A stretch of 64,000 nt of DNA, taken from the IMG/VR virus record IMGVR_UViG_3300029798_000001. One strand, 5' to 3'. This document shows, piece by piece, positions 10,413 through 29,616 of this stretch (position 1 is the first letter of the stretch; each line of letters starts with the position of its first letter). The position numbers were made by a program, and so were the translations under genes. The stretch is from a virus (Duplodnaviria; Caudoviricetes). The notes below the pieces were generated by a model. The model worked only from the letters and a program-made list of their open reading frames with translations, did not search any database and was not told the origin of the DNA.

Positions 10413-12134
10413 ATGACCCAAGATAACTTAACTGCTAAACAACTCGGACCAGATGGGCAAAGCCAATATGCCGTTTTTCTCCCGGCCATCAGTGGCTTCT
10501 ATGCTACTTACATAGGTAAACAGCGTGATCCTGTTAATGGTCCATATGTAGATCCCAAAACCCGCATGCCCGCTGGTATGAAAGATATGGAAATGATGAA
10601 CTGGCTTAATAGTTCCAAAGGCCTATTTCCATACAAATGGTCCTTGTACTCGGGTGGCCACGCCAACTTAGACCTTACTAAGCAAGACTGGTCTGAAGAC
10701 ATGGTTCGTAATTGCGAACCCGGCACAGTCATGTTAGGTGACTCGGGTGGATTCCAGATTGCCAAAGGCTTATGGGAAGGTGAGTGGCGTGATCCAACTA
10801 GCCCTGCGGTGTTAGCAAAGATGGTCGAACTCAAGGCCAACGGGATCGAACATGTGCTAGATCTTAAACCAGACGGCACCGCAAAGCATGATAAAAATGG
10901 CAACAAAAAGTATGCCAAAATTGATCATGTTAAGAACTACCAGAACTTGCTAGATGCCGCACAGAAGAAACGAGAAGCAGTGGTTAAGTGGTTAGATGGT
11001 GTTTCAGATTATGGCATGACCCTAGATATACCAACTTGGGTTATACATGACAAGAATGCCAGCGACAAGTGTGGTATTACTACACTAGAAGAAGCAGTGG
11101 CCGCAACCAAGTATAATAATGATTACTATATGCGTCATCGTAAGGGTGCTCGGAACGGTGGCATGAAGGTGTTGAATGTTCTACAAGGTGCTAACCATGC
11201 CGATGCTGATCGTTGGTATGATACTATGAAACACTATTGTGATCCTACTGTATATCCAGACACACACTTTGATGGTTGGTCCATGGGCGGTCAGAACATG
11301 TGTGATGTGCATTTGGTATTACGCAGACTTGTGGCACTACGGCATGATGGATTACTTAAAGAAGGTGTCCATGATTGGATGCACTTCCTAGGCACAAGTA
11401 AATTAGAATGGGCAGTATTACTCACAGACATTCAACGAGCTGTTCGCAAGTATGTTAACCCAAGTTTTACTATTAGTTTTGACTGTGCTAGTCCATTCCT
11501 TGCTACTGCCAATGGACAAGTGTATCACCACATTGATCTGCCACACAACGACAAATGGTGTTATCGTATGAGTCCTATTGCTGATGATAAAAAGTATAGC
11601 ACAGACACACGCCCATATGGTCAAGCGGTGGTGGCAGATGGATTGGTTGATCACTTTGATGAAAGTCCAATTAGTCTACAGTTACAAATGAAAGATGTTT
11701 GTTATTACCAACCCGGCATGTTAAACAAAATTGGCAAAGAAGGTAAGACATCGTGGGATAGTTTTAGTTACGCATTATTAATGGGCCATAATGTTTGGAT
11801 GCACCTAGAAGCGGTTCAGCGGGCCAATCGTGAATATGATAACGGATCATATCCTGCTATGATGTGGGATCAAAACGGTGATCATACACGATTTAAAGAT
11901 ATAGTTGAAGCTATTTTTGCTACTCCAGATCGTGCGGAAGCCGAAGCCATTATCGAAAGTTATGACCGCTACTGGATGGACATTGTAGGTACTCGTGGGT
12001 TCAAAGGTAAGAAAGCCAAAAATGCACACAGCCAATTTAATGCATTGTTTGACGAAGTCGCTCCGGCACACGGCGAAAGTGAAGACGAAATAGAATTTGA
12101 CGAATCAAAATTAAATAATTTAGAGGCCCTATGA
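10413..12134 (+). CDS. dpdA: tRNA/DNA-guanine transglycosylase family protein (DpdA-like)
   Basis: TGT motifs GDSGGFQI, MTLDIP, VLQG, GWSMGG, HFLG, SFDCASP, HN; folE/queD/queE in the same region; start ATG 10413. Confidence 0.75.
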   Translation: MTQDNLTAKQLGPDGQSQYAVFLPAISGFYATYIGKQRDPVNGPYVDPKTRMPAGMKDMEMMNWLNSSKGLFPYKWSLYSGGHANLDLTKQDWSEDMVRNCEPGTVMLGDSGGFQIAKGLWEGEWRDPTSPAVLAKMVELKANGIEHVLDLKPDGTAKHDKNGNKKYAKIDHVKNYQNLLDAAQKKREAVVKWLDGVSDYGMTLDIPTWVIHDKNASDKCGITTLEEAVAATKYNNDYYMRHRKGARNGGMKVLNVLQGANHADADRWYDTMKHYCDPTVYPDTHFDGWSMGGQNMCDVHLVLRRLVALRHDGLLKEGVHDWMHFLGTSKLEWAVLLTDIQRAVRKYVNPSFTISFDCASPFLATANGQVYHHIDLPHNDKWCYRMSPIADDKKYSTDTRPYGQAVVADGLVDHFDESPISLQLQMKDVCYYQPGMLNKIGKEGKTSWDSFSYALLMGHNVWMHLEAVQRANREYDNGSYPAMMWDQNGDHTRFKDIVEAIFATPDRAEAEAIIESYDRYWMDIVGTRGFKGKKAKNAHSQFNALFDEVAPAHGESEDEIEFDESKLNNLEAL

Positions 12135-12337
12135 ATACCCATTTAGAACATAGATTAACGCATTTAGAAAAAGAACATGTACAGTTAGATAAGCGTATTG
12201 ATGGGTTAGAAGCAACCGGTGTGTTTGACGATACTGTTTTAGAAGTTTTGAAGAAGCAACGGTTGCATATTAAAGACGAAATTGTTAAAATTAAACTTAA
12301 GATGGCCTATGATACCGGTGCTAACGAAAGTGACTAA
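12131..12337 (+). CDS. DUF465/YdcH-like coiled-coil protein
   Basis: L..EH..LD.RI..LE......LKKQRL.IKDEI pattern. Confidence 0.65.
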   Translation: MNTHLEHRLTHLEKEHVQLDKRIDGLEATGVFDDTVLEVLKKQRLHIKDEIVKIKLKMAYDTGANESD

Positions 12338-13402
12338 TTGAACCGCAAAAACTTTTGTGCTGCTCCGTGGGCTGGACTTAGCTTAGATCCAGATGGTCAA
12401 GCTAAACTTTGTTGTATTAGTCAAGATCGAGTTCCATTGCAGGAGTTTGGTCATGCAAAATCTTTGTCTAAGTTTGTAGAAATTCGGCAGGCGTTTATTA
12501 ACGACCAACAACACACAAATTGTAGTGCTTGCTGGCAACGCGAAGAAGTTAATACTAATTGGGAAAGTCGTCGTAGCATTTATCAACATGATGATTTTCA
12601 TCATAATCTCAATTCGGCCACAGATTTTCAACTTGAACATTTAGATTTGCGCTGGAGCAATACTTGTAATCTTAATTGTGTGTATTGCAGTTCAACTTTC
12701 AGTAGTCGATGGGCTGAATTACAAGGAAAAAAACAAAGTTTTAAAATATCCCCCACAGTGACAGATTTGGATTTGGCCAATCTTAAAATATTACAACTGG
12801 CAGGTGGTGAGCCTTTGTTGATTAAAGAAAATCTAGGTATATTGGAACGTTTAAATAAAGTAAATCCTAATGTTAGTATCGAAGTCACAACCAATCTGAC
12901 CATGATCAACAATAATCGTATCTATGATAATTTAAAGCAGTTTGATAATGTGACTTGGATAGTCAGTTTTGAATCAACTGAGAAACGGTTTGAATACATT
13001 AGAAATGGTGCTAGGTGGGATGACTTTTATAATAATTTAAATAAGTTGGCCATGGATTTTATGGACATACAAGTAACTATGGTTTATTTTCCACTAAGTG
13101 GGTTAGGCATTACTAATGCAATACAAGTGGCGTTGGAATTTACTTCTCCGGATAATGTGTTTTTGGTCAGTCAATCTGGAGGACACGGATTTGACAATCT
13201 AAGTCGCTCTGCGTTACAATACATAAAACAACATAATTTAGACCAACTAATACAGTTACCCGATATTTTACAGACACGTTTACAAGATCAAATATTATCT
13301 GCTACAACGCAACAGACCGAAACACTATTACCGTTGTATGATAAATTTGATCAGCTTATTAACCAAAATCACCGTTTACTTTTCTCGGAGTTATATGAAT
13401 AG
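12338..13402 (+). CDS. Radical SAM protein with an N-terminal SPASM/twitch-type Cys cluster
   Basis: CNLNCVYC (CxxxCxxC) and GGEPLL; N-terminal CAAPW..CC..C..CW; TTG start. Confidence 0.85.
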   Translation: MNRKNFCAAPWAGLSLDPDGQAKLCCISQDRVPLQEFGHAKSLSKFVEIRQAFINDQQHTNCSACWQREEVNTNWESRRSIYQHDDFHHNLNSATDFQLEHLDLRWSNTCNLNCVYCSSTFSSRWAELQGKKQSFKISPTVTDLDLANLKILQLAGGEPLLIKENLGILERLNKVNPNVSIEVTTNLTMINNNRIYDNLKQFDNVTWIVSFESTEKRFEYIRNGARWDDFYNNLNKLAMDFMDIQVTMVYFPLSGLGITNAIQVALEFTSPDNVFLVSQSGGHGFDNLSRSALQYIKQHNLDQLIQLPDILQTRLQDQILSATTQQTETLLPLYDKFDQLINQNHRLLFSELYE

Positions 13403-13910
13403 AGCAGGACATGAAGAAATAAGTTTCTTTATAGGAACTGAAGTAGAGCACACCATTGCGTTTGGTCTGAAGACCTTGTTTGTGGTAGGCCTACAAGACG
13501 CACAGATCGTCCAACAAGAAGCTAAAAACAACAAGTGTGAGCATATCTATTTTGGTGCTGACCAAAGTTTTCCAGCCTTAGACAAGAATGATGGTGATGC
13601 TTGGCAGGAATGGGAATACATGGTGCAGTCATGCTTGGAGGCAGGATGGTTATGCACTCTTGACCTAGATCATGCACAGGCAGAAGGCCTATTAGAATCC
13701 GGCCTAGTAGAGTTCCATAATTTTGTTCCAATGATCAGTGTCAAACTTCCCTATATAAAACAGTTTGGATACCATGCCACTCTTAAAATTGATGATAGAG
13801 ATTTCGCGGCAACAAACCCAGGCGTGTGGTGTCACAGCCTACACGACTTACAAAATAAAGAAGTGTTTACTGACTGGTCTAAATATACCAAGGACGAAGT
13901 GATACAATGA
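13395..13910 (+). CDS. Conserved-looking hypothetical protein in the deazaguanine cluster
   Basis: Start M-N-R-A-G-H overlaps the radical SAM stop; HIYFGA and PGVWCHSL motifs. Confidence 0.55.
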   Translation: MNRAGHEEISFFIGTEVEHTIAFGLKTLFVVGLQDAQIVQQEAKNNKCEHIYFGADQSFPALDKNDGDAWQEWEYMVQSCLEAGWLCTLDLDHAQAEGLLESGLVEFHNFVPMISVKLPYIKQFGYHATLKIDDRDFAATNPGVWCHSLHDLQNKEVFTDWSKYTKDEVIQ

Positions 13911-14491: not shown

Positions 14492-14838
14492 TGAGAAATT
14501 GGTTAAGACAGAAATTAATTAATATATTAATAGACGATGGCTCAGAGCCCGAGAAGAATGCCCGGCAACGACCTGCCACAATAAATCGTGCAAATCGAGG
14601 TAGTGGTAGTATTAGTGTTTGCTTGGATAACGGAGTTGATGATAGCCCAAGTGGAATTGATCTTCCGGATCCTATTGTGTTTAAGGTACAGGCAGTATCT
14701 GGAGGAACAGTGGTAGAAACTAAGTGGTACGACTACAAAAAAGACGAGCAACGGGTTAAACTGCATATCATCACCCAAGAGGAAAACTTATCCGAATCTA
14801 TTGGTAAAATTGTAACTATGGAACTACTACAAAAATGA
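14491..14838 (+). CDS. Hypothetical protein
   Basis: ORF track; TAATG coupling to the upstream gene. Confidence 0.55.
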   Translation: MRNWLRQKLINILIDDGSEPEKNARQRPATINRANRGSGSISVCLDNGVDDSPSGIDLPDPIVFKVQAVSGGTVVETKWYDYKKDEQRVKLHIITQEENLSESIGKIVTMELLQK

Positions 14839-15278
14839 TACAAGAAGAACGCAACACCGTAGAAAGAGTTATAGCAGCTGCAGATAGGAAAATCTGGGTG
14901 ACTTTCAAGAAGGAAGGAATCCATCGTTATCCTGCTGCCGCGACAGATCCGTTATTATGCACCGCTGGTGAATATGATGTTAGCTTTTTGGCTAATCCGC
15001 ACAGACATATTTTCTGGTTTAAAGTTTGGATAGATGTATTTCATTCTAATAGAGATTTGGAATTTATTCAATTTAAGCGTTGGTTAGAGAGTTTATATAG
15101 TAAAGATATTTTACAATTAGATTTTAAAAGCGTAGAGATGATTGCCGATGACCTATATATACAAATAGCCGATCGCTATCCTAATCGTGCTGTAGTAATT
15201 GAAGTATCCGAAGACGGCGAGAACGGATGCTCCATTAGTTATAACCTTACTCGTCCAACACAATCAATTGTAATTTAA
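14835..15278 (+). CDS. dpdL: QueD-like T-fold protein, probable DpdL (CDG decarboxylase) type
   Basis: LANPHRHIF matches the LxxxHRHxF signature I recall for DpdL; C-terminal SEDGENG. Confidence 0.6.
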   Translation: MIQEERNTVERVIAAADRKIWVTFKKEGIHRYPAAATDPLLCTAGEYDVSFLANPHRHIFWFKVWIDVFHSNRDLEFIQFKRWLESLYSKDILQLDFKSVEMIADDLYIQIADRYPNRAVVIEVSEDGENGCSISYNLTRPTQSIVI

Positions 15279-15288: not shown

Positions 15289-15516
15289 ATGGGCAAACCC
15301 CAACACCGTGTAAACCCAAGAGCTCTTCAAGCATTTGAAGATTTGTCAACCTACTTGGAATTCTGCGTAAACTACGGATATCGTTATAACGAAGCCGACT
15401 TGTATAACTTTAAGAGTTATGCATGGCAACAGTACAACAAGTTTACACAAGGTAAGAACGCCAAGAACATGTGGGAAGAAGATACCCGCAGATTCTCAGG
15501 ATATCGCCGTGCGTAA
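15289..15516 (+). CDS. Hypothetical protein
   Basis: ORF track; AAGGA RBS. Confidence 0.55.
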   Translation: MGKPQHRVNPRALQAFEDLSTYLEFCVNYGYRYNEADLYNFKSYAWQQYNKFTQGKNAKNMWEEDTRRFSGYRRA

Positions 15517-16711
15517 GTTATTCTACATGGGGATTGAAAAAATAGAATCCCGTTACACTTTACAACTAACTGAATGGAATCGGCGTGTATTTGATCGCCG
15601 AGGATTAGATGTTGTGTATGTTGATGGTGCAAACATTGACAATACACAGAGTATCTCAGTCGGACAAGTGTTAGATGCACACGGTCGTAGTTACTTTAGT
15701 ATGAGTCAAATGATGAATCTTGTTAAGATGATGAAAGCAGGAGAAGTTACAAGCGACGATATTATCTACTTTGAAGACATGTTTACTGTTGGTATTGAAA
15801 GCCTACCATATATCCTTGATCAAATAGATCCAAAGTATAGGCCAAAGATTTTTGTTAGATGTTTGGCCCAATCGGTGGATCCGGATGACTTTGTTCATGT
15901 GTGGGGCATGGCGGAATGGATGTCGACTTATGAAAAAATGGTCAACTGTTTTGTTACGGGCGTCTTAGCCACTAACGAAGAGATGGTGGCTCATATGCGT
16001 ATTGCCGGGTGGTCAGCTCCTATCTACAATATTTCAGGCCTGGCATTTGGCAAGGAAGAAGTTCTAGAGCGTATAGGTGGCTCGCAAAATATTCGACCGT
16101 TTGACCAACGTAAAATGCGTGTGGGCTTTGCCGCTAGGTTTGACCAAGAGAAGCAACCAGGATTCTTTATGGACTTAATTGAGATGTATTATAGTCAAGG
16201 TCGTCATAAGGATATTGAATTTGCTGTGTTCCAAGGTGGCCCATTACGCAGTAATAATCCTGAATATATTGATCGGGCTCGTCGATTAGAAGCAGAAGGT
16301 CGACTTAAAATTTATGAAGGGTTAAAGAAAAATGACTACTATAATTTACTCAATGATACTCGTGTTTTGTTTAATTGCGCTTTACAAGACTGGGTCTCAA
16401 ACACCGTTTCTGAAGCTGATACTCTTGGAAGTAATGTGCTTTATCCTGCTTATCGAAGTTTCCCAGAGACTTTTGCAGATGATCCAAACCGCTTATATGT
16501 CCCTTGGAGCATTAATGATGCTTATCACAAGTTAGAAAACTTGTTACAGGAACCCCATCACAACCAGGGCTTGATTAGTGACTGGACTGATGGCACCGTA
16601 GATCGAGTTGTAGACATCTTAGAAGGCAAGGGCGAATCTTGGAATCGCGCAGGCAATCGTTATCGTGATCATGTAAGTCAAGCCAAGTATCAACTAAGGA
16701 ATAATAAATGA
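15509..16711 (+). CDS. GT-B fold glycosyltransferase
   Basis: GTG start at 15509; FAARFDQEKQP and FNCALQDWVSNTVSEA (GT1/GT4-like E-x7-E region variant). Confidence 0.8.
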   Translation: MRKLFYMGIEKIESRYTLQLTEWNRRVFDRRGLDVVYVDGANIDNTQSISVGQVLDAHGRSYFSMSQMMNLVKMMKAGEVTSDDIIYFEDMFTVGIESLPYILDQIDPKYRPKIFVRCLAQSVDPDDFVHVWGMAEWMSTYEKMVNCFVTGVLATNEEMVAHMRIAGWSAPIYNISGLAFGKEEVLERIGGSQNIRPFDQRKMRVGFAARFDQEKQPGFFMDLIEMYYSQGRHKDIEFAVFQGGPLRSNNPEYIDRARRLEAEGRLKIYEGLKKNDYYNLLNDTRVLFNCALQDWVSNTVSEADTLGSNVLYPAYRSFPETFADDPNRLYVPWSINDAYHKLENLLQEPHHNQGLISDWTDGTVDRVVDILEGKGESWNRAGNRYRDHVSQAKYQLRNNK

Positions 16712-17661
16712 AGGTAATGGTAACTGGGGCCGCTGGATATATCGGCGGCGAAACGCTATTAAAATTAGTGGATGCCGGGCACGAGGTGTTAGGGGTTGAT
16801 ATTCGCATGCCACCGGAGTATTTGTTAAGGGTGCTAGGAATCTGGTGGCACACTGGTGATTTTGCTGGCGAGGTTGGCCTAGAAACTATTAAAATGTTTC
16901 AACCTGAGGTAATTATCCATTGTGCTGGTACTAGCCTAGTAGGGCCTAGCGTACTCAATCCTAGATTGTATTATGATAATAATTTTGTTAAAACTAAAAT
17001 ATTATTAGATTATCTTATTGATAATAAGTTAAATCATATTCGAGTTATTTTTAGTTCTAGTGCCGCTGTGTACGGTGAACCTATAATGACACCATGTGAT
17101 GAAGTAGATCCTACCTTACCGGTAAGTCCATATGGCGAAAGCAAGTTAATGATCGAGTGGATGCTATCTAATTACGCTCGGTCTTATGATTTAAATTATG
17201 TAGCATTTCGTTACTTTAATGCCTGTGGTGCAGATAGTCAAGGGCGACACGGGCAAGAACCTGGAGCGACACATATTATTGCCAGAGTACTGGAAGCTAT
17301 TAAAAACGATCAAGATTTTACTTTGTACGGTACTCGGTATCCTACACCAGATGGTACTTGTATTCGTGATTATATTCATGTGGAGGATTTAGCTGCCGCA
17401 CATATTAGAGCAGTAGAAAAAGATATTACAGCAGGAATTTATAATCTTGGAAATAATACAGGCCACAGCAATCTTGAAATTATCCAGGCCGCTGCAAGAA
17501 TTACAAACAAGGATGTGGGTGTATTGCATGGAGAACCAAGGACGGGCGATCCAGCGATGTTAACCGCCCGTGCTGATAAATTCCAAAAATTATCTGGGTG
17601 GGTTCCTACATTTGGGTTAGATAGTATTATACAGCACGCCTGGAGCTGGTATAATAGATGA
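16708..17661 (+). CDS. galE: UDP-glucose 4-epimerase (extended SDR)
   Basis: TGAAGYIG, FSSSAAVYG, YGESK, RYFNACGA, RDYIHV. Confidence 0.92.
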   Translation: MKVMVTGAAGYIGGETLLKLVDAGHEVLGVDIRMPPEYLLRVLGIWWHTGDFAGEVGLETIKMFQPEVIIHCAGTSLVGPSVLNPRLYYDNNFVKTKILLDYLIDNKLNHIRVIFSSSAAVYGEPIMTPCDEVDPTLPVSPYGESKLMIEWMLSNYARSYDLNYVAFRYFNACGADSQGRHGQEPGATHIIARVLEAIKNDQDFTLYGTRYPTPDGTCIRDYIHVEDLAAAHIRAVEKDITAGIYNLGNNTGHSNLEIIQAAARITNKDVGVLHGEPRTGDPAMLTARADKFQKLSGWVPTFGLDSIIQHAWSWYNR

Positions 17662-18251
17662 GTTTTCAAACACTATTTGATTTTGAATTGGCATTAGCCA
17701 AATATACCGGCGCACCGTATGCGGTTGTTACTGATGGATGTACCCACGCATTGGAATTATGCTTTAGGCATGATCAAATAAAAAAAACAGCATTTACACC
17801 TTTTACCTATCTTAGCATTCCTATGCTAATGCATCATTTAGGTATTGAATACCAGTTTCATAACGAAAGTCATAGACAACATACATGGACCGGTGAGTAT
17901 CATTTTGAAGGCACTAGAATTTGGGATAGTGCTCGCAGACTAGAACACGGAATGTATAAGAAGGGATTTATGCAATGCCTAAGTTTTGGCTGGACTAAAC
18001 CATTGCAAATAGGCAAGGTTGGTGCTATTTTATTAGATGATTATGAAGCATACAAAAAGTTTAGTCGTCAACGAGCAGACGGGCGCGATCTAAATATTCC
18101 ATGGGAAAAAGAAACACAGTTAATCTTGGGTTACCATTACTGCCCTACATTAGAATTATGTGCTAAGGGGTTAGAGTTGTTACCAACTATTATTCCTCAA
18201 TCACAATCTGCAGTTTATCCAGACTGTAGAAAAATTTCATTTGCACCTTGA
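17658..18251 (+). CDS. Short DegT/DnrJ/EryC1-like PLP aminotransferase
   Basis: AVVTDGCTHALEL; CLSFGWTKPL..G.VGAIL (Schiff-base Lys motif). Confidence 0.7.
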   Translation: MSFQTLFDFELALAKYTGAPYAVVTDGCTHALELCFRHDQIKKTAFTPFTYLSIPMLMHHLGIEYQFHNESHRQHTWTGEYHFEGTRIWDSARRLEHGMYKKGFMQCLSFGWTKPLQIGKVGAILLDDYEAYKKFSRQRADGRDLNIPWEKETQLILGYHYCPTLELCAKGLELLPTIIPQSQSAVYPDCRKISFAP

Positions 18252-18296: not shown

Positions 18297-19043
18297 ATGA
18301 AATTAGAACCAGTAACACTAGATAACATCGACGAAGGTGGTTACCAAGATCACGAAATGAACTTAGCCGACTCTATCCGCCGTCAAATGAAGCGTGATAA
18401 GAAACGCTTTTGGGCAGGTGATAACATTAGCGATTATGTAGACGATTATCGCAAGCAAATATTAATCAACGAAGCAACTGTAGCATTTGAAAGTGTATTA
18501 GATGCATTGTTAATTGATCGTGAAAACGATCCTAACTCAAAAGGCACAGCACATCGCTTGGCCAAGATGTATTACAACGAAATTATGGGAGGTCGATATG
18601 ATCCAGCTCCTAGCGCAACAGCTTTTCCAAACGATTCAGCGGATAGATATGAAGGTATGTTGGTTGTGCGTAGCGAGTTGCGTAGTATGTGTAGCCATCA
18701 TCATCAACCTGTGTCTGGTGTTGCTTACATTGGAATTATTGCAGCCAATAAACTTATTGGCCTTAGCAAATATACTCGTATCGCTCAGTGGTGTGCTCGT
18801 CGTGGCACACTTCAAGAAGAACTATGTAATGACATTGCCCGCGAAATAATGCGAGCAACTGATAGTGAGAATGTCGGTGTGTATATACAAGCTCAACATG
18901 GGTGTTGTGAAAATAGGGGCATAATGGCACACTCTAGTCTAACACAGACCACAGTATTAAAAGGTGTATTTCAAAGAGACCCAGGAACTAAGAAAGAGTT
19001 CATGGACAATATCAAACTACAACAGGACTTTGCCCCTAGATGA
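18297..19043 (+). CDS. folE: GTP cyclohydrolase I
   Basis: SMCSHHH, IGLSK..RI, QEEL, HGCC..RG motifs. Confidence 0.95.
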   Translation: MKLEPVTLDNIDEGGYQDHEMNLADSIRRQMKRDKKRFWAGDNISDYVDDYRKQILINEATVAFESVLDALLIDRENDPNSKGTAHRLAKMYYNEIMGGRYDPAPSATAFPNDSADRYEGMLVVRSELRSMCSHHHQPVSGVAYIGIIAANKLIGLSKYTRIAQWCARRGTLQEELCNDIAREIMRATDSENVGVYIQAQHGCCENRGIMAHSSLTQTTVLKGVFQRDPGTKKEFMDNIKLQQDFAPR

Positions 19044-19759
19044 AAATATTAGACAATCTAAATTTAGAATTTAGAGAAGCAGTATATATGAATGGCCCAG
19101 GACAATGGTTGTGGCCAAAAGATGATCAGCAGTGTTGGAATTATTTTAACACCAGTGAAAAGACACTGTTTGACAGCAAAGGGAAAACCCCCTATCACTT
19201 ACCACACGATATTATAGAATTATTACCAGTTAACAGACGAGATCTTATTTTTCAAGCAGGTGGCAATGGTGGATTGTATCCATCAATCTATGCAGAATTC
19301 TTTAAACAGGTTATAACATTTGAACCGCATTATAGATGGTTTGCTTGTTTGAGTATAAATGCCCCCGAGGATAATGTTTTTAAATATCGTGCGGCATTAG
19401 GAAATGATAACGAACCTATACAAATTGTAATACCCGATAACAATATGGGAGGTATGTATATGCAACCCGATGGTATCATTCCTAAGTTAAAAATTGATTC
19501 ATTTGGATTAAATCCAGATCTAATACACCTAGATATCGAAGGTGCAGAATATGATGCCTTGTGTGGTGCTGTAGAAACCATTAAAAGATCTAGTCCGGCA
19601 ATTGTTCTTGAATGGGATAGCGGCATTATGCGTAGGTTTGGATATTCAAGTGGTGTCCTTGAACAATTTTTTAAAGATAACAATTATGTTTTACAAAAAT
19701 CCTGGCCAAGAGATCGTGCCTATGTACATGAAAGTAATTATAAAGAGGAATTAAAATGA
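19040..19759 (+). CDS. FkbM-family methyltransferase
   Basis: QAGGNGGLYP, FEP, LIHLDIEGAE. Confidence 0.85.
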   Translation: MKILDNLNLEFREAVYMNGPGQWLWPKDDQQCWNYFNTSEKTLFDSKGKTPYHLPHDIIELLPVNRRDLIFQAGGNGGLYPSIYAEFFKQVITFEPHYRWFACLSINAPEDNVFKYRAALGNDNEPIQIVIPDNNMGGMYMQPDGIIPKLKIDSFGLNPDLIHLDIEGAEYDALCGAVETIKRSSPAIVLEWDSGIMRRFGYSSGVLEQFFKDNNYVLQKSWPRDRAYVHESNYKEELK

Positions 19760-19886
19760 TGAACGCAAAAGATTTAGCAGATCAATTGATCGATTGTGCT
19801 AAAAATCTACAAGAGTTTTGTGTTCCGGCTATGACTCGGGCCGAGGCCGAAAGTCGTGTCGATGCCCGGTTAAACGGTCAACGAGT

Positions 19887-20213
19887 GTGACCTATGTTGT
19901 AGCAGAAGGATGTATTCTCTGTAAGCATACTGATTGTGTTGATGTTTGTCCGGTAGATTGTTTTGTAGAGGGGCCAAACTTTTTGGCTATTGATCCTGAC
20001 GGGTGTATTGACTGTGCGGTGTGTGTTCCAGAATGTCCAGAAAATGCCATCTACGCCGAAGACGATGTTCCGGAAGATCAAAAGCAATTTATTGCAATCA
20101 ATGCCGAACTGGCTAAGATTTGGAAACCTATTACCAAATCTAAAGACTCTATGCCCGAAGCTGAAAAATGGGCCGGTGTTGCTAATAAACTACAGTATCT
20201 AAAACGCAGTTGA
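19887..20213 (+). CDS. fdxA: 7Fe ferredoxin (FdxA/Azotobacter FdI type)
   Basis: GTG start; TYVV..CI.CKHTDCVDVCPVDC...CIDCAVCVPECP. Confidence 0.92.
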   Translation: MTYVVAEGCILCKHTDCVDVCPVDCFVEGPNFLAIDPDGCIDCAVCVPECPENAIYAEDDVPEDQKQFIAINAELAKIWKPITKSKDSMPEAEKWAGVANKLQYLKRS

Positions 20214-22884: not shown

Positions 22885-23253
22885 ATGACAACATTACTAG
22901 ACACACAAGAAGCAGGCATTGCACCCTGGATTGATAAGATAAAAGATCATCCATTGGTTGCAGTATACCTAGACCGATATCCTTGCACTCCCGGACATAG
23001 ATTATATGTGCCTAAAGACGATAATCCAAATTGGATTGTGCAGGCCATGGAACAAGCCCTAGCCGACGGTAATCATATGGTAGAACAAGGTGAGTGTGAT
23101 GGGTTTAACATTGGTTTTAATTCTGGCACAGCAGCTGGACAGACTGTTATGTATCCTCACGTTCATCTTATTCCACGCAGAGCGGGCGATGTAGAAGATC
23201 CAGTAGGTGGCGTTAGAAATACAATACCCGGTAAAGGAAACTATAAGAAATGA
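22885..23253 (+). CDS. HIT-family nucleotide hydrolase
   Basis: AGQTVMYPHVHLIPR histidine triad. Confidence 0.9.
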   Translation: MTTLLDTQEAGIAPWIDKIKDHPLVAVYLDRYPCTPGHRLYVPKDDNPNWIVQAMEQALADGNHMVEQGECDGFNIGFNSGTAAGQTVMYPHVHLIPRRAGDVEDPVGGVRNTIPGKGNYKK

Positions 23254-24643: not shown

Positions 24644-25141
24644 ATGACATACCCAGCAATTCAAAAAAAGTATATGAGCACAAAAGAATATAAAGATGCC
24701 TTTCCTGTGGCATATCGCCAATGGCGAGATGATGGCAAATGTTCTATCGTTCACGGCTATGCGTTAACCGTTCGATTCTTTTTTGAATCGGATGAGTTAG
24801 ATGTCCGGAACTGGGTTCAAGATTACGGCGGACTTCGCCCACTTAAAGAGCAATTAGAAGAATGGTTTGATCATCGTTTATTAGTAGCCATTGACGACCC
24901 TCATAAAGATTTATTAGTAGCATTACACGATGCCGGTATTGCTAAGATTACAGAAGTAGAAAAGACCGGATGCGAAGGTATTGCTGACTTCTTATACGAA
25001 TATGTAAACACTATCTTCTTACCAAGTTATGGTAAAGCAGAAGCAGAGCGTATTTGGTGTTGTCGAGTAGAGGTTCGTGAAACACAAAGCAATATGGCAA
25101 TGCGGCAAGGGCATCGAGAGTGGAATGAATTCACAGATTAA
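24644..25141 (+). CDS. queD: 6-carboxy-5,6,7,8-tetrahydropterin synthase
   Basis: C..VHGY, DYGGL, FDHRLLV..DDP, GCEG, VEVRET. Confidence 0.85.
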   Translation: MTYPAIQKKYMSTKEYKDAFPVAYRQWRDDGKCSIVHGYALTVRFFFESDELDVRNWVQDYGGLRPLKEQLEEWFDHRLLVAIDDPHKDLLVALHDAGIAKITEVEKTGCEGIADFLYEYVNTIFLPSYGKAEAERIWCCRVEVRETQSNMAMRQGHREWNEFTD

Positions 25142-25150
25142 GAAAAATAT

Positions 25151-25375
25151 ATGAACGAGAAGATTAATGGACTTTGGGACAAGGCTGTTACCTTGGTTGA
25201 ACAAGAACCAGATGGGGATTGGTCGTTAGATACAATTAAAGACAAGTTCGCCGAGTTGATTGTTAAAGAATGTATTGGTATTTTAGAACCGAAAAGTAGA
25301 TATATGGGCGAAGGTCCCGAAGTATTAAAAGATAAGATTAGACAGATTAACCGACATTTCGGAGTTGAAGAATGA
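25151..25375 (+). CDS. Small protein of the FAELIV..C...HFGVEE paralog family
   Basis: Same motifs as ORFs at 57648, 58910, 60411 and 61591. Confidence 0.75.
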   Translation: MNEKINGLWDKAVTLVEQEPDGDWSLDTIKDKFAELIVKECIGILEPKSRYMGEGPEVLKDKIRQINRHFGVEE

Positions 25376-25470
25376 AGATATGGTGCTACTGTGTTGAAGT
25401 TCGTGAAACACAAAGCAATATGGCATTTCGTGAAAGCCACAGAGAGTGGTGCGAAGATTTATTTGCTTAA
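25372..25470 (+). pseudogene. Duplicated 3' end of queD (32-codon mini-ORF)
   Basis: MKIWCYCVEVRETQSNMAFRESHREW versus QueD IWCCRVEVRETQSNMAMRQGHREW; 27-nt identity 25399-25425 = 25073-25099. Confidence 0.8.
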
Positions 25471-25497
25471 TAAACGGCGCATATAAATATTCGCACT

Positions 25498-26316
25498 ATG
25501 TCAAATGAATACAAAATAGCAGTTATACTACCTACACGGGGCCGCACTGCGGCATTAACACACAGTCTCGTCGGACTATTAGAAAAAGCCGCGGATCTGG
25601 ACCAGATACAGGTATTGTTAGGCTTGGACACGGACGATACAGTAGGCATTAAACATTTCCAAGAATCATTACAACCCCAGTTAGATGATATGGGCGTGGC
25701 CTATACCGCCATGACATTCGAACCCATGGGCTACAGTCGTCTTAACGAATACATCAATACCCTGAGTAAAGAGTCTAGTGCAGATTGGATCTTTTTTTGG
25801 AACGATGATGCCTTGATGGAGAGTGACAATTGGGATTTAGAAATTGTTAAACGCACCGGTGAATTTAAATTACTAGCAGTTCACACCCATAACGACCATC
25901 CTTATAGTATATTTCCAATCGTTCCAAGAGAATGGTTAGATGTCGTCGGCCATTTAAGTTTACACAGTATGACTGATGCTTGGCTAAGTCAAATTGCTTT
26001 CATGATAGATATTTGGGAACGTATCGATGTGCATGTTGTCCATGATCGGGCCGACCTTACTGGTAATAATTTAGATGCTACTTATAAACAAAGAGAACTA
26101 CTAGAAGGCAATCCTAGTAATCCTAGAGATTTTCATAATCCTAGCATGACTGTATTGCGTATGCAAGAATGTGAAAAATTATCAATTTATATGAAATCGA
26201 TAGGATTAGATACTACCTGGTGGAAAAATGTTAAACTTAGCAAACAAGACCCTTGGGAAAAATTAAACCTTAACGATCCAAATGGCCAAATGAGACAGTT
26301 TCAATTTAAACCCTGA
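25498..26316 (+). CDS. GT-A (family 2-like) glycosyltransferase
   Basis: VILPTRGR and FFWNDDA (DxD-like); TATAAATA promoter at 25483. Confidence 0.75.
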   Translation: MSNEYKIAVILPTRGRTAALTHSLVGLLEKAADLDQIQVLLGLDTDDTVGIKHFQESLQPQLDDMGVAYTAMTFEPMGYSRLNEYINTLSKESSADWIFFWNDDALMESDNWDLEIVKRTGEFKLLAVHTHNDHPYSIFPIVPREWLDVVGHLSLHSMTDAWLSQIAFMIDIWERIDVHVVHDRADLTGNNLDATYKQRELLEGNPSNPRDFHNPSMTVLRMQECEKLSIYMKSIGLDTTWWKNVKLSKQDPWEKLNLNDPNGQMRQFQFKP

Positions 26317-27029
26317 TGAAATACCAAGTCACCACCCGGCATGGTCAAATGATACTGCCCTACGCTAATGATTACATTGCACAACAATTAATTAGTAATG
26401 GCGAGTATGAATGGTATGTAGTAGATATTATTAAACAGCTTAGTCAAGGACATGCCACAGGAATCATATTAGATATTGGGGCAAATATTGGAACAATGTG
26501 TTTGCCGTTAGCAAGAGATTTTCCTAATTATCAAATACATGCATTTGAAATACAGCCAAGATTGCTCAAAACTATAAAAGAAAATATCCAGCTCAATGGA
26601 TTAACTAATATTGTATTATACGAACACGGGCTTGGAAATATAGTTGATATTATATCCATCAGACAACCGGTTTATGATTCTGCTACCAATATCGGAGCAC
26701 TCAGTTTAAATCCATTGGTGTGGGAACATAGTGATATTAGTGTTGGGCACGGTGATGCTATTGACATTAATGTCGTTCCTCTTGATTCTATAAAGTTTGA
26801 TATTCCTATTAGATGTATAAAATTAGATGTCGAAGGATATGAACGATTGGTGATTGAGGGTGCTGTTGAAACTCTTAAACAACATAACTACCCGCCAATA
26901 GTTTACGAACTATGGGGATACAATGCTTGGTGGAAAGAGGAAGCTAAAAAATTAAAAGACCTATTGATTCAGTTAGGATATACTGATTTTAAACAAATCG
27001 ATGATACCGGAATTGCTATACACCCATGA
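26316..27029 (+). CDS. FkbM-family methyltransferase
   Basis: ILDIGANIG, AFEIQP, IKLDVEGYE. Confidence 0.9.
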   Translation: MKYQVTTRHGQMILPYANDYIAQQLISNGEYEWYVVDIIKQLSQGHATGIILDIGANIGTMCLPLARDFPNYQIHAFEIQPRLLKTIKENIQLNGLTNIVLYEHGLGNIVDIISIRQPVYDSATNIGALSLNPLVWEHSDISVGHGDAIDINVVPLDSIKFDIPIRCIKLDVEGYERLVIEGAVETLKQHNYPPIVYELWGYNAWWKEEAKKLKDLLIQLGYTDFKQIDDTGIAIHP

Positions 27030-27751: not shown

Positions 27752-27782
27752 CTTTATCTTAATATTGCGTTATAATAGTAAC

Positions 27783-28331
27783 ATGAAAAAAGTATATTAC
27801 TCCTGGCAAGATGTTGAGAATCAGACTCAAGAGATCCTACGTCAGCTACAGCGTGATGCTTGGGTTCCTGATTATGTAGTCGGACTCACCCGGGGCGGAT
27901 TGGTTCCGGCTAACCTAATTAGTCAGTACTTAGAATGCCCAATGGAAACTCTTAAAGTAAGCCTACGAGATGATAATAGCTCTCCCGAAAGTAACTTATG
28001 GATGGCCGAAGAAGCATTTGGGTATGTTCCAAAAGATGAACAGATATTATCTGAATTTGATTATGCTATTACAGCCAAAAAAATCCTCATTATTGATGAC
28101 ATCAATGATAGCGGTGCCACATTAAATTGGATCAAGCAAGATTGGATGAGTGGGTGCTTGCCAGGGCATGAGCGTTGGAAAGGTGTTTGGGGTAATAATG
28201 TCCGTGTCGCCACCTTAGTAGATAACGAAGCAAGTGCTAGTGAATTAAATGTTAGTTATTCAGCCGTCGGCCTAAATAAGGCTGAAGAAGATTCGTGGAT
28301 TGTTTTTCCTTGGGAAGATTGGTGGAAGTGA
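27783..28331 (+). CDS. Type I phosphoribosyltransferase (gpt-like)
   Basis: VGLTRGGLVPA, ILIIDDINDSGAT, WIVFPWE. Confidence 0.88.
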   Translation: MKKVYYSWQDVENQTQEILRQLQRDAWVPDYVVGLTRGGLVPANLISQYLECPMETLKVSLRDDNSSPESNLWMAEEAFGYVPKDEQILSEFDYAITAKKILIIDDINDSGATLNWIKQDWMSGCLPGHERWKGVWGNNVRVATLVDNEASASELNVSYSAVGLNKAEEDSWIVFPWEDWWK

Positions 28332-28759
28332 GATTACTAGCTAAAATTATATTGATTTTTTTATTTGGTCTAAATACATCCTGGGCCGACACCTGGATTA
28401 GCATTGGCGGTGGCACTTATCATACTTGTGAAACTTGTGGGTATAACGGTGTTAATCCGGGATTAGGAATACAAACCGACTATTCAAAAGACTTGCGTTT
28501 TGTGGCAGGTGGATATTATAATAGCTACTATAAAGCTAGTTTTTATGGTGGCGGTGCTTGGCAACCAATACAGTACGAAATAATTAAAGTTGGAATAGTT
28601 GGCGGTGTAATATCAAACTATAATAATCTACGGGTGCCACTAATGGCATTACCCGTTATTAGTATAGAAGGTGAGCTACTAGGTATTGACATTATGGGTA
28701 TTCCGACAATAACAAACCATTCTGGTATTATAACTGCAAATTTAAAATTTAAATTATGA
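28328..28759 (+). CDS. Secreted small outer-membrane beta-barrel protein (PagP-like)
   Basis: Signal peptide; NPGLG, G.Y.NSY...S.Y.G, alternating beta strands, terminal FKL. Confidence 0.45.
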   Translation: MRLLAKIILIFLFGLNTSWADTWISIGGGTYHTCETCGYNGVNPGLGIQTDYSKDLRFVAGGYYNSYYKASFYGGGAWQPIQYEIIKVGIVGGVISNYNNLRVPLMALPVISIEGELLGIDIMGIPTITNHSGIITANLKFKL

Positions 28760-29616
28760 AAATTAAAGTAAGCGAATTATTTTATAGTCTACAAGGCGAG
28801 GGTCGCTTTGTTGGAGTGCCTAGTGTATTCTTACGCACTTATGGTTGCAATTTTACCTGCTCCGGATTCGGTTGCAAGCCCGGCGAAAAATCTACAGGCG
28901 CAGACGATGTAGCTGAAGTGGTTCATATGTATAATAACTTCTTAGAGTTGCCACTGGTTGAAACCGGCTGTGATAGCTACGCATCTTGGCATCCAGCATT
29001 CAAGCATCTGAGCCCTACATACGAAACAGCAGATCTAGTAGAAAAGATGCTAGAACTAACTCCTAACAATATGTGGGCCCAGAATAATGGCAATGATGTA
29101 CATTTGGTAATTACAGGTGGTGAACCTTTGCTAGGGTGGCAACGTGCCTATGCAGAATTATTAAGTCATCCACGTATGGCAGATTTAAAGAATATTACAT
29201 TTGAAACAAATGGTACTCAAGAATTACACGCAGACTTTAAACTGTATTTGATTAAATGGGCTCAAGAGGTTCCGGGTCGCGAAGTTACATTTAGTGTTAG
29301 TGCCAAATTAAGTGCGTCGGGAGAAACTTGGGCGGATGCAATTAAGCCAGAGATTGTGAAGAGCTATCAATTATATGGACACACCTATCTTAAGTTTGTT
29401 GTTGAAACCGAAGAACATGTGGATGAAGCTGTTCGTGCTGTGGATGCGTTTCGCAAAGGTGGGTTTACTGGTGTAGTTTATTTGATGCCGCAAGGCGGTG
29501 TCGTTAAACCGTATGAAAGTAATAAACTAAACATTGCCAACATCTGCGTTGAGCGTGGGTGGAACTATAGTCCACGTCTACACGTTGACCTTTGGGGCAA
29601 CGGATGGGGCAAGTAA
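28756..29616 (+). CDS. queE: 7-carboxy-7-deazaguanine synthase (radical SAM)
   Basis: ELFYSLQGEG, FLRTYGCNFTC....CDS, VITGGEP, TFETNGT, SPRLH..LWG. Confidence 0.92.
   Translation: MKIKVSELFYSLQGEGRFVGVPSVFLRTYGCNFTCSGFGCKPGEKSTGADDVAEVVHMYNNFLELPLVETGCDSYASWHPAFKHLSPTYETADLVEKMLELTPNNMWAQNNGNDVHLVITGGEPLLGWQRAYAELLSHPRMADLKNITFETNGTQELHADFKLYLIKWAQEVPGREVTFSVSAKLSASGETWADAIKPEIVKSYQLYGHTYLKFVVETEEHVDEAVRAVDAFRKGGFTGVVYLMPQGGVVKPYESNKLNIANICVERGWNYSPRLHVDLWGNGWGK

What the first reader, a model, noticed from the sequence alone, without database searches (positions are those of the whole stretch)
10413..29616. 7-deazaguanine DNA-modification route without QueC, with a DpdL-like enzyme and an adjacent glycosyltransferase: possible new hypermodified G
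Seen: TGT/DpdA-like gene (10413), HRH T-fold protein (14835), GT-B glycosyltransferase (15509) coupled to GalE and a DegT-like gene, then FolE, QueD, QueE and a PRTase. No QueC, QueF or Gat-QueC is recognisable in the window. Known: FolE-QueD-QueE gives CDG; DpdL is predicted to decarboxylate CDG to 7-deazaguanine; DpdA inserts the base into DNA. Inference: the genome carries dDG or dCDG, and the tight DpdL-GT-GalE linkage suggests a sugar is added, a glycosylated deazaguanine I do not recognise as described. Alternative: the GT acts on proteins or the cell surface.
Basis: partly seen in the sequence, partly recalled or inferred. Interest (0 to 1): 0.8.

Follow-up and report, generated by a model that had tools for sequence, protein, structure and literature searches.

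The report
Sugar transferase inside phage deazaguanine genes
A freshwater giant phage carries the known gene set for swapping guanine in its DNA for 7-deazaguanine, and a sugar-transferring enzyme almost always travels with that set, so its DNA may carry a sugar-bearing purine that I found in no paper and that cultured relatives could test.

Summary
The window holds a TGT-fold DpdA-like gene, a DpdL with the published LxxxHRHxF signature, a GT4-type GT-B glycosyltransferase coupled by overlapping codons to GalE, and FolE, QueD, a purine PRTase and QueE. There is no QueC or QueF here. Two complete ~350-kb relatives also lack QueC, QueF and any ThyA-type hydroxymethylase.

The main new result is comparative. 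The glycosyltransferase family lies on the same strand as DpdL, at a median gap of 679 bp, in cultured phages of seven lineages (PA5oct group, ACP17, BUDD/X1, BCSR5, Phosso, BUCT-ZZ01) and in environmental phages. Of the GT clusters at 70% identity, 42 of 44 have DpdL within 5 kb. Of DpdL-seeded loci, 45 of 47 have the GT within 4 kb. phiST, the one DpdL phage with measured plain dDG, has no such GT.

The glycosyltransferase is therefore probably part of the deazaguanine pathway. Its acceptor is unknown: the free base, the base in DNA, or an intermediate. I found no paper describing the link. PA5oct is reported to have a modified G of unknown identity.

This scan has noted the same pattern before on other DNA (96 notes, at least 77 genomes). 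An earlier QTMAN-likeness claim was not reproduced for this family.

The parts
10413..12134 (+). DpdA-like base-exchange enzyme (TGT fold, 573 aa), of a long subfamily shared with PA5oct EST35_0316
   Evidence: The AlphaFold model has pLDDT 87, and the Foldseek top 50 are all Z. mobilis TGT at E about 1e-7. Invariant D110 (DSGGFQ), D205 (MTLDIP) and D357 (SFDCAS) align to the TGT-like family of BUDD/ACP17/BUCT-ZZ01 by hhalign (prob 91%, E 9e-7). It is 28% identical over 97% of its length to the PA5oct protein. It gets no Pfam TGT hit.
13338..13910 (+). Conserved protein of unknown family that travels with the module (about 170 aa; the likely start is further in, near 13395)
   Evidence: Found in 74 of 80 close loci, 49 of 80 diverse GT loci and in ACP17 (ASD50402). 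No Pfam or PDB match. The atlas score of 0.78 is below a reliable level.
14835..15278 (+). DpdL (QueD-like T-fold protein; predicted 7-carboxy-7-deazaguanine decarboxylase)
   Evidence: Carries the LxxxHRHxF signature. It is 34% identical (E 1e-17) to phiST CGPG_00067 and 52-65% identical to the PA5oct, ACP17 and Phosso copies. hhalign to QueD gives prob 69%, E 4.5e-5, with HRH aligned on HGY.
15289..15516 (+). Small conserved ORF (75 aa) between DpdL and the GT
   Evidence: Present in 80 of 80 close loci, 61 of 79 DpdL-seeded loci and 19 of 80 diverse GT loci, but not in the cultured phages examined. Function unknown.
15527..16711 (+). GT4-type GT-B glycosyltransferase (394 aa; alternative starts at 15509 and 15419)
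   Evidence: The model has pLDDT 95. VIA-align gives Z 26.3 to sucrose-phosphate synthase, 25.4 to BshA, 22.6 to pteridine glucosyltransferase 5zer and 20.2 to T4 alpha-GT bound to DNA. Foldseek's top hits are glycogen synthase, BshA and MshA. R204, E208 and K209 are invariant, and there is a D288-x7-E296 motif. Glycos_transf_1 hits 78 of 105 family members, while the window protein itself scores only E 0.049. Linkage to DpdL.
16708..17661 (+). GalE, UDP-hexose 4-epimerase, overlapping the GT stop by 4 bp
   Evidence: TIGR01179 scores 292.5 bits against a cut-off of 262.3. It lies within about 0-30 bp of the GT in most loci of this lineage and of related lineages.
17658..18251 (+). Short DegT-like protein (197 aa), overlapping the GalE stop by 4 bp
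   Evidence: The Pfam DegT match covers only profile positions 28-88 of 360. The ~200-aa length is conserved in about 100 loci.
18297..19043 (+). FolE, GTP cyclohydrolase I
   Evidence: Pfam PF01227, E 7e-39. Present near the GT in most loci.
24644..25141 (+). QueD (CPH4 synthase; CxxxHGY variant of the motif)
   Evidence: Pfam PTPS, E 3e-16. It is 64% identical to ACP17 QueD. Alignment.
25498..26316 (+). Second, GT2-like (GT-A) glycosyltransferase candidate
   Evidence: Atlas score 0.99 to viral clusters in which 62% of members carry PF00535. Present in 51 of 80 close loci. No direct Pfam hit.
27765..28331 (+). Purine (xanthine/guanine-type) phosphoribosyltransferase
   Evidence: Pfam Pribosyltran, E 5e-16. 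NCBIfam xanthine PRTase, E 6e-12, below its cut-off. Homologues sit in the BUCT-ZZ01 and PA5oct modules.
28756..29616 (+). QueE, 7-carboxy-7-deazaguanine synthase (radical SAM)
   Evidence: PHROG 2076 'QueE-like', E 4e-53. NCBIfam QueE N-terminal matches. It is 47% identical to BUCT-ZZ01 QueE.

Best explanation
This is a DpdL-type 7-deazaguanine DNA-modification module without QueC, in a freshwater jumbo phage of about 350 kb. It has a glycosyltransferase built into it.

Inferred from family knowledge:
- FolE, QueD and QueE convert GTP to 7-carboxy-7-deazaguanine (CDG).
- DpdL turns CDG into 7-deazaguanine. This is a published prediction that has not been demonstrated.
- The TGT-fold DpdA-like enzyme exchanges guanine in phage DNA for the deazapurine.
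- The purine PRTase recycles the released guanine, or acts on the deazapurine.

Shown here by comparative genomics: a retaining GT4-type glycosyltransferase is a near-constant, same-strand neighbour of DpdL across unrelated phages. In this lineage it is coupled by overlapping codons to GalE.

Most likely mechanism (inference): the GT uses a UDP-hexose supplied by GalE to put a sugar on the deazapurine. This happens either on the free base made by DpdL before insertion, or on the base once it is in DNA. The virion DNA would then carry a glycosylated 7-deazaguanine rather than plain dDG.
For: Gene identities.

Linkage in cultured phages:
- The GT is adjacent to DpdL in BUCT-ZZ01, ACP17, the PA5oct group and Phosso.
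- It is one gene away in BUDD/X1 and within 3 kb in BCSR5.
- Gene orders differ between these phages.

Linkage in IMG/VR:
- GT-seeded diverse loci nearly all hold DpdL within 3.5 kb.
- Of DpdL-seeded loci with at least 4 kb on both sides, 45 of 47 hold the GT within 4 kb.
- After dereplication, 42 of 44 clusters (70% identity), 16 of 17 (50%) and 8 of 8 (40%) have DpdL nearby. All 225 pairs are on the same strand, with a median gap of 679 bp.
- In complete genome G008 the GT-DpdL pair stays 18 bp apart while QueE and DpdA lie about 50 kb away.

Other support:
- All five complete jumbo genomes tested that carry the GT and DpdL also have QueE and the DpdA-like gene.
- QueC and QueF are absent.
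- The two closest complete relatives have no ThyA-type hydroxymethylase and do have ThyX, so there is no hmC or hmU acceptor.
- phiST has measured dDG and no GT of this family anywhere in its genome.
- PA5oct, which carries the same module, has a modified G by restriction analysis (PMC12191111).
- A GT that glycosylates a preQ0-derived deazapurine base is already known (HuiG of huimycin; bioRxiv 10.64898/2026.04.15.718813).
- The module sits among replication genes.
Against: - No chemical data exist for any GT-bearing phage.
- 7-deazaguanine offers no hydroxyl. A sugar would need an N-, C- or (on CDG) ester linkage, and I know of none of these for a retaining GT4 enzyme acting on nucleic acid.
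- The GT's structural neighbours are generic GT4 enzymes that act on small molecules (BshA, MshA, sucrose-phosphate synthase), not DNA glycosyltransferases in particular.
- The tightest partner is DpdL, a small-molecule enzyme, rather than DpdA. That also fits a role that leaves no sugar in DNA.
- DpdL's activity is unproven. Co-expressing DpdL with DpdA gave no dDG in E. coli (PMC10516641).
- This window carries further sugar genes typical of polysaccharide work.
- Many of the loci counted are related, so the raw counts overstate independence. The dereplicated clusters and the seven cultured lineages are the fairer measure.
Confidence: 0.45

Rival explanations
1. The GT belongs to the pathway but acts only on a small molecule, and the final DNA base is plain dDG or another sugar-free deazapurine. 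The acceptor could be a pterin or CDG intermediate, a by-product, or a transient carrier form of the base.
For: - The GT's closest partner is DpdL, a T-fold small-molecule enzyme. The pair stays together even when QueE and DpdA are 50 kb away.
- The best structural neighbours act on small acceptors (BshA, MshA, sucrose-phosphate synthase). A pteridine glucosyltransferase that acts on tetrahydrobiopterin scores Z 22.6.
- FolE plus a PTPS-like enzyme plus a GT4 enzyme resembles the cyanobacterial pteridine-glycoside route (my own knowledge).
Against: - Every complete genome tested that carries the GT and DpdL also has QueE and a DpdA-like gene. Most loci keep all of them in one same-strand block.
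- phiST makes dDG without any such GT, so the GT is not needed to make or insert 7-deazaguanine.
- No pterin reductase was recognised.
Confidence: 0.2
2. The GT and the other sugar genes glycosylate something unrelated to nucleic acid, such as virion proteins or host envelope glycans. Their place beside DpdL would then reflect shared early expression or inheritance.
For: This window also has a GT2-like gene, two FkbM methyltransferases, a UDP-sugar dehydrogenase-like gene and a cytidylyltransferase-like gene. A few family members lie without deazaguanine genes nearby. Examples are L095, which sits next to a sugar nucleotidyltransferase, and the PhiXhv-12 group, which sits next to GlmS and an LmbE-like deacetylase.
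Against: - The linkage to DpdL holds in both directions. It survives dereplication and changes of gene order across unrelated phage families.
- The extra sugar genes are not conserved with the module, whereas the GT is.
- The module lies among replication genes. Even the exception L103 has the GT between a DNA polymerase and a clamp.
Confidence: 0.15
3. The deazapurine enters DNA before replication. The PRTase makes a deazapurine ribonucleotide, as in tubercidin biosynthesis, and this is converted to the dNTP and polymerised. The DpdA-like protein would play a lesser or different part, and the GT's role would remain open.
For: A purine PRTase sits in the module in this window, in BUCT-ZZ01 and (weakly) in PA5oct. 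The tubercidin clusters use CDG, a PRTase and a decarboxylase. A MazG-like pyrophosphohydrolase lies at 35401-35769.
Against: - The PRTase is missing from many loci that carry the module.
- A DpdA-like gene with all three catalytic aspartates is conserved.
- Published work finds a DpdA in all phages known to carry deazaguanines in their DNA (PMC10516641).
- The PRTase is equally well explained as salvage of the released guanine.
Confidence: 0.1
4. The TGT-like enzyme modifies tRNA rather than DNA.
For: It has the TGT fold and the catalytic motifs.
Against: The gene sits in the replication module next to DNA polymerase. PA5oct, which has the orthologous module, has restriction-resistant G sites in its DNA. 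In the published phage cases such enzymes act on DNA.
Confidence: 0.03

Closest known systems
DpdL-type dDG system of Cellulophaga phage phiST (Cui, Hutinet et al., NAR 2023, PMC10516641)
   Same: It has FolE, QueD and QueE and no QueC. It has DpdL with the LxxxHRHxF signature (34% identity, E 1e-17). It has a distant TGT-family inserter, and it sits beside replication genes.
   Different: phiST has no GT of this family anywhere in its genome, and its DNA carries plain dDG. Its DpdA3 is 259 aa and only marginally alignable to the 573-aa protein here (hhalign prob 50%). The window adds the GT4 enzyme, GalE, a PRTase, a conserved 170-aa unknown and a 75-aa ORF.
Deazaguanine module of Pseudomonas jumbo phage PA5oct and relatives (Wroclawvirus; EST35_0316 to 0322)
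   Same: The neighbourhood is the same: PolB, a phrog_12062 protein, the long DpdA-like protein (28% identity), the GT (24% identity, E 2e-15), DpdL (52%), a PRTase-like gene and QueE. A modified G in its DNA was inferred from restriction digests (PMC12191111).
   Different: PA5oct has no GalE next to its GT, and the order there is GT then DpdL. The chemical identity of its modified G is not reported in the papers I could search.
Phage T4 glucosylation of 5-hydroxymethylcytosine (alpha- and beta-glucosyltransferases)
   Same: A phage-encoded GT-B enzyme uses a UDP-sugar to decorate a non-canonical base. T4 alpha-GT bound to DNA aligns to the model at Z 20.2, rmsd 4.0, over 320 residues.
   Different: The T4 acceptor is a hydroxymethyl group on a pyrimidine, made by a ThyA-type hydroxymethylase. 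No such enzyme exists in the two closest complete relatives. Generic GT4 enzymes score higher than T4 alpha-GT.
HuiG of huimycin biosynthesis (GT acting on a preQ0-derived 7-deazapurine base with UDP-GlcNAc)
   Same: A glycosyltransferase whose acceptor is a 7-deazaguanine-type free base made through FolE, QueD and QueE.
   Different: It belongs to actinomycete secondary metabolism and needs QueC. There is no DpdA and no DNA target. I did not compare the sequences, because I held no HuiG sequence.
QTMAN/GTDC1, the GT4 enzyme that mannosylates queuosine in tRNA
   Same: By my own knowledge, it is a GT4-class enzyme that puts a sugar on a 7-deazaguanine derivative within a nucleic acid.
   Different: Its acceptor is a hydroxyl on the cyclopentenediol side chain. 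The QTMAN_N domain was not detected in any of 105 family members or in five phage genomes. GTDC1 is not among the top 30 Swiss-Prot structural matches.

Membership tests
DpdL (predicted CDG decarboxylase, QueD paralogue) | Signature LxxxHRHxF in place of the CxxxHGH of QueD | tested here: met
   The window protein reads L-ANP-HRH-I-F. The signature is as defined in PMC10516641. The histidines are invariant in an eight-lineage alignment.
DpdL (predicted CDG decarboxylase, QueD paralogue) | Homology to the founding member, phiST CGPG_00067 | tested here: met
   BLASTP: 34% identity, E 1e-17, over the full length.
DpdL (predicted CDG decarboxylase, QueD paralogue) | T-fold relationship to QueD | tested here: inconclusive
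   hhalign of the DpdL alignment against the QueD alignment gives prob 69%, E 4.5e-5, with HRH on HGY. No direct Pfam PTPS hit. No structure was predicted for it.
DpdL (predicted CDG decarboxylase, QueD paralogue) | Genome has FolE, QueD, QueE and a DpdA but no QueC | tested here: met
   Window. Complete relatives.
DpdL (predicted CDG decarboxylase, QueD paralogue) | Decarboxylates CDG to 7-deazaguanine | not testable with these tools
   This is only a prediction in the literature. Heterologous expression gave no dDG.
TGT/DpdA superfamily | TGT-type TIM-barrel fold | tested here: met
   The model has pLDDT 87. The Foldseek top 50 are all TGT, E about 1e-7, TM by target about 0.5.
TGT/DpdA superfamily | Catalytic aspartates in the DSGGxQ, xxDE/I and xFDC/S motifs | tested here: met
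   D110, D205 and D357 are invariant in 78 sequences. They align with the same motifs of the BUDD/ACP17/BUCT-ZZ01 TGT-like family. The correspondence to Z. mobilis D102/D156/D280 rests on my reading of the motifs.
TGT/DpdA superfamily | Match to the Pfam TGT model PF01702 | tested here: not met
   No Pfam family at E up to 0.01, and no NCBIfam family either. The protein is too divergent for the curated models.
DpdA3 subfamily (phiST CGPG_00065, Campylobacter phages) | Sequence relationship to phiST DpdA3 | tested here: inconclusive
   hhalign prob 50%, E 1.6e-4, over 78 columns around the HFLG motif. The lengths are 573 aa against 259 aa. It looks like a separate long subfamily shared with PA5oct.
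TGT/DpdA superfamily | Acts on DNA rather than tRNA | not testable with these tools
   The only support is indirect: its place in the replication module, and the modified G of PA5oct DNA.
GT4-type retaining GT-B glycosyltransferases | Two-Rossmann-domain GT-B fold | tested here: met
   pLDDT 95. Z 26.3, 25.4 and 24.7 to sucrose-phosphate synthase, BshA and glycogen synthase. Foldseek prob 1.00.
GT4-type retaining GT-B glycosyltransferases | Pfam Glycos_transf_1 domain | tested here: inconclusive
   The window protein scores only E 0.049, below the cut-off. However, 78 of 105 family members match, with a best E of 2e-10.
GT4-type retaining GT-B glycosyltransferases | Phosphate-binding R/K and an EX7E-type motif in the C-terminal domain | tested here: met
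   R204, E208 and K209 are invariant, and D288-x7-E296 is nearly invariant. The PA5oct, Phosso and ACP17 copies read E-x7-E. The first acid is D in the window's lineage.
QTMAN/GTDC1 (tRNA-queuosine mannosyltransferase) | QTMAN_N domain PF12038 | tested here: not met
   No hit in 105 family members at E up to 0.1. No hit in five phage genomes that carry the GT at E up to 1.
QueC-dependent preQ0/ADG/G+ phage systems | QueC (or Gat-QueC) present | tested here: not met
   None in the window. None in complete relatives G001 and G002. Only partial matches, all but one below the cut-off, in 43 further records.
T4-like hydroxymethyl-pyrimidine glycosylation | ThyA-type dCMP/dUMP hydroxymethylase providing the acceptor | tested here: not met
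   No PF00303 match in the complete relatives G001 and G002, which carry ThyX instead. A more distant relative, G005, has a ThyA-family gene. The rest of the window's own genome could not be searched.
GalE (UDP-glucose 4-epimerase) | Score above the TIGR01179 equivalog cut-off | tested here: met
   292.5 bits against 262.3.

The most novel reading that the evidence does not exclude
Virion DNA of this phage, and of the many phages that keep the DpdL-GT pair (including the cultured PA5oct, ACP17, BUCT-ZZ01, BUDD/X1, BCSR5 and Phosso), carries a glycosylated 7-deazaguanine. That would be the first sugar-bearing purine in any DNA. A GT4 enzyme would have to form an unprecedented linkage to a deazapurine: N-glycosidic on N2 as in huimycin, or C-glycosidic at C7 coupled to DpdL-assisted loss of the carboxylate.
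Probability: 0.35. Interest if true: 0.9.

Novelty: new variant of a known kind. Interest (0 to 1): 0.72.

Why it matters
All DNA glycosylations known to me sit on hydroxymethyl-pyrimidines. A sugar on a purine analogue would be a new class of DNA hypermodification, and it would need new glycosyltransferase chemistry. It would also matter for restriction, for Type IV and END-nuclease defence, and for sequencing and cloning of such genomes.

The module is very common. The GT query returned about 8,000 proteins at E up to 0.001, falling into 723 clusters at 50% identity, from lake, marine and soil viromes. It includes therapy-relevant Pseudomonas jumbo phages whose modified G is still unidentified.

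The published failure to reconstitute dDG from DpdL plus DpdA also suggests the pathway is not fully understood. The conserved GT, the 170-aa unknown and the 75-aa ORF are concrete candidates for missing components.

The question can be tested directly in phages already in culture, with phiST as a natural control that has DpdL but no GT.

Tried and rejected
- Megablast of 11.7 kb against cultured phages: no match.
- No whole genome is held for the window, so QueC, QueF and ThyA were sought in complete relatives instead.
- PDB sequence searches with the GT and the DpdA-like protein: nothing.
A distant relationship within GT4 is not excluded.
- Isoelectric points as a hint of DNA binding: the GT family is acidic (median 5.8), but so are the DpdA-like proteins. 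This was uninformative.
- NadE (29907-30695) as a stand-in for QueC: rejected. It scores as a genuine NadE, the QueC similarity is limited to the PP-loop, and it was seen in only 1 of 80 close loci. It lies about 13 kb from the GT, so it may simply fall outside the 10-kb flanks.
- The 170-aa conserved unknown: no Pfam or PDB match by profile, and the atlas score of 0.78 is below a reliable level.
- Sequencing runs: no RNA holder was listed, and no Nanopore run was listed. Only contigs were available, so no read-level test of modified G was possible and read laying was not used.
- Supplementary tables of PMC10516641 are not held, so I could not check which ACP17 or PA5oct proteins its authors called DpdA.

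Full report
**What is in the window**

All genes from 4.6 to 35 kb lie on the + strand. The window comes from a lake or freshwater metagenome, and near-identical sequence recurs in three studies. Close relatives in IMG/VR include complete genomes of 352,754 and 346,856 bp with terminal repeats. This is therefore an uncultured freshwater jumbo phage. Megablast finds no cultured relative. The local synteny (split PolB, a phrog_12062 protein, the DpdA-like gene) matches Pseudomonas phage PA5oct and Sinorhizobium phage Phosso.

**The observation**

- The protein at 10413-12134 has no Pfam, PHROG or NCBIfam hit, but it contains GDSGGFQ.
  - With an alignment of 78 homologues its AlphaFold model reaches pLDDT 87. 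All top 50 Foldseek matches in the PDB are tRNA-guanine transglycosylase.
  - Three aspartates are invariant: D110, D205 and D357. By hhalign (prob 91%, E 9e-7) they align with the DSGGLQ, FDEIP and SYDS motifs of the shorter TGT-like proteins of BUDD (annotated queuine tRNA-ribosyltransferase), ACP17 and BUCT-ZZ01.
  - It is only marginally alignable to phiST DpdA3. I treat it as a long subfamily of the DpdA/TGT superfamily.
- The protein at 14835-15278 carries the published DpdL signature and is homologous to the founding DpdL.
- The glycosyltransferase, with its best-supported start at 15527, gives a pLDDT-95 model with a GT-B fold closest to retaining GT4 enzymes.
- GalE scores above its equivalog cut-off.
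- The 'DegT-like' gene is a conserved ~200-aa protein with only partial DegT similarity.
- FolE, QueD, the PRTase and QueE are clear.
- Four-base overlaps join the GT to GalE and GalE to the DegT-like gene, and join DpdL to the ORF upstream of it (coordinates).

**QueC and QueF**

Neither is in the window. The only PP-loop protein is a genuine NadE. The two complete close relatives have no QueC and no QueF. Among 43 further viral records that carry the GT, DpdL or both, nine of them at least 90% complete, there is no full-length QueC. There are only partial matches, all but one below the cut-off. The route therefore ends at CDG or something derived from it.

**The glycosyltransferase travels with DpdL**

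In cultured phages a member of this GT family lies next to DpdL, or within about 3 kb of it:

- BUCT-ZZ01 (64% identity to the window GT)
- ACP17
- the PA5oct group
- Phosso
- BUDD/X1
- BCSR5

Gene orders differ between them: DpdL-GT, GT-DpdL, and GT-DpdA-DpdL. These phages belong to different families and infect different hosts.

In IMG/VR the same holds:

- Of 80 loci seeded with a divergent GT alignment, nearly all have DpdL within 3.5 kb, together with FolE, QueD and QueE.
- Of 47 loci seeded with DpdL that have at least 4 kb on both sides, 45 have the GT within 4 kb.
- After single-linkage clustering of the GT, 42 of 44 clusters (70% identity), 16 of 17 (50%) and 8 of 8 (40%) have DpdL within 5 kb.
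- All 225 GT-DpdL pairs are on the same strand, with a median gap of 679 bp.

In complete genome G008 the pair is 18 bp apart while QueE and the DpdA-like gene lie about 50 kb away. DpdL is therefore the GT's tightest partner. All five complete genomes tested that carry the GT and DpdL also carry QueE and the DpdA-like gene.

Some genomes have DpdL but no GT of this family at all: phiST and Rhizobium phage RHph_I1_18. phiST is the phage in which plain dDG was measured.

A few family members lie without deazaguanine genes in reach:

- L095, beside a sugar nucleotidyltransferase, a NIR_SIR protein and a radical SAM enzyme
- L103, between a family A polymerase and a clamp
- the more distant PhiXhv-12 group, beside GlmS and an LmbE-like deacetylase

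**What it most likely does**

The steps from GTP to CDG follow from established knowledge of FolE, QueD and QueE. DpdL as CDG decarboxylase is a published prediction, and co-expression with DpdA gave no dDG. Base exchange into DNA is inferred from three things: the TGT fold and catalytic residues, the module's place among replication genes, and PA5oct, whose DNA resists enzymes with G in their sites.

The GT has the nucleotide-sugar binding residues of GT4 enzymes, and in this lineage it is coupled to GalE. That points to a UDP-hexose donor such as UDP-galactose.

The two closest complete relatives have no ThyA-type hydroxymethylase, so there is no hydroxymethyl-pyrimidine acceptor. The acceptor that best fits the linkage is the deazapurine made by DpdL, either free or in DNA.

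There is chemical precedent. HuiG glycosylates a preQ0-derived base. QTMAN glycosylates queuosine in tRNA (my own knowledge). T4 alpha-GT aligns to the model at Z 20.2.

Against this, 7-deazaguanine has no hydroxyl, and the structural neighbours are generic. I put the sugar-on-deazaguanine reading at about 0.45 for the full mechanism. I put about 0.7 on the weaker statement that the GT works in this pathway.

**Rivals**

- A small-molecule role that leaves no sugar in DNA, including a pterin glycoside. The pteridine glucosyltransferase 5zer scores Z 22.6.
- A target unrelated to nucleic acid. This is favoured only by the extra sugar genes in this window, which are not conserved with the module.
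- A pre-replicative nucleotide route through the PRTase, by analogy with tubercidin.
- A tRNA target, which I consider unlikely.

**Literature and novelty**

Only the NAR 2023 paper and its preprint mention DpdL in the library. Searches that combined deazaguanine with glycosyltransferase, glycosylated or DpdA returned no paper linking a GT to a phage deazaguanine module. The END-nuclease preprint reports a modified G in PA5oct without identifying it.

This scan has noted the same pattern before on other DNA: 96 notes in at least 77 genomes. I re-derived the linkage independently. I could not reproduce one earlier claim, that the GT is QTMAN-like, for this family.

**Verdict**

This is a new variant of a known kind of system. 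It can be tested directly in cultured phages, with phiST as the GT-less control.

Noticed in passing
window 4606-8702: The family B DNA polymerase is in pieces. An N-terminal part with the start of an intein (4606-6756) is followed by a 319-aa ORF with no family hit (6784-7743). That ORF is in the same frame but comes after a stop codon. Then comes a C-terminal part that opens with the end of an intein (7719-8702), in another frame. PA5oct likewise has its polymerase split around a homing endonuclease gene.
   Followed up: partly
window 38447-41027 and 52106-53029: Host-like metabolic genes in the phage: a P-II nitrogen regulator directly followed by an ammonium transporter (Amt, E 9e-112), then a Gcw_chp protein, and further on a TctC-type solute receptor.
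   Followed up: no
window 29907-30695 and 32523-33041: A genuine NadE (NAD synthase) and a cytidylyltransferase-like protein (possibly NMN adenylyltransferase-like) lie just downstream of QueE. NadE performs the same ATP- and ammonia-dependent carboxylate-to-amide chemistry as the first half of QueC. It does not appear to travel with the module.
   Followed up: partly
window 12338-13402: A radical SAM enzyme with an N-terminal twitch domain (NF033640, above its cut-off) sits between the DpdA-like gene and DpdL. It is present in only 11 of 80 close loci and 12 of 80 diverse loci. A radical SAM/SPASM enzyme also lies near the GT family member in L095, which has no deazaguanine genes in reach.
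   Followed up: partly
window 19040-19759, 25498-27029, 30768-32012: A wider sugar toolkit is interleaved with the deazaguanine genes: two FkbM-type methyltransferases, a GT2-like protein and a UDP-glucose/GDP-mannose dehydrogenase-like protein. Their conservation varies. The GT2-like gene is in 51 of 80 close loci, and the others are rare.
   Followed up: partly
window 20271-22883: An 870-aa protein with FG-GAP-like repeats lies in the middle of the module, between a ferredoxin (19818-20213) and a HIT-family protein (22885-23253).
   Followed up: no
window 3390-4031 and 35401-35769: A dCMP deaminase-like gene and a MazG/PRA-PH-type nucleotide pyrophosphohydrolase. phiST has a MazG-like gene right next to its DpdL, so a role in clearing a canonical dNTP is conceivable.
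   Followed up: no
L006 (Rhizobium phage RHph_I1_18) 9971-11232: In this DpdL phage, which lacks the GT, the gene directly after DpdL encodes a macro-domain (Appr-1-p processing) protein. This hints at a different follow-up chemistry on the same pathway.
   Followed up: no
L258 (Xanthomonas phage PhiXhv-12) 4735-7969: A more distant member of the GT family (24% identity over 67% of the PA5oct GT) follows GlmS and an LmbE/BshB-like deacetylase, with no deazaguanine genes annotated nearby. This looks like a GlcNAc-transfer-then-deacetylate pair with an unknown target.
   Followed up: no
L001 (Synechococcus phage BUCT-ZZ01) 8992-10335: The 447-aa hypothetical protein between FolE and the TGT-like gene weakly matches the C-terminal half of the GT profile (E 2e-5). 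This cultured cyanophage may carry two GT-B-like proteins in its module.
   Followed up: no
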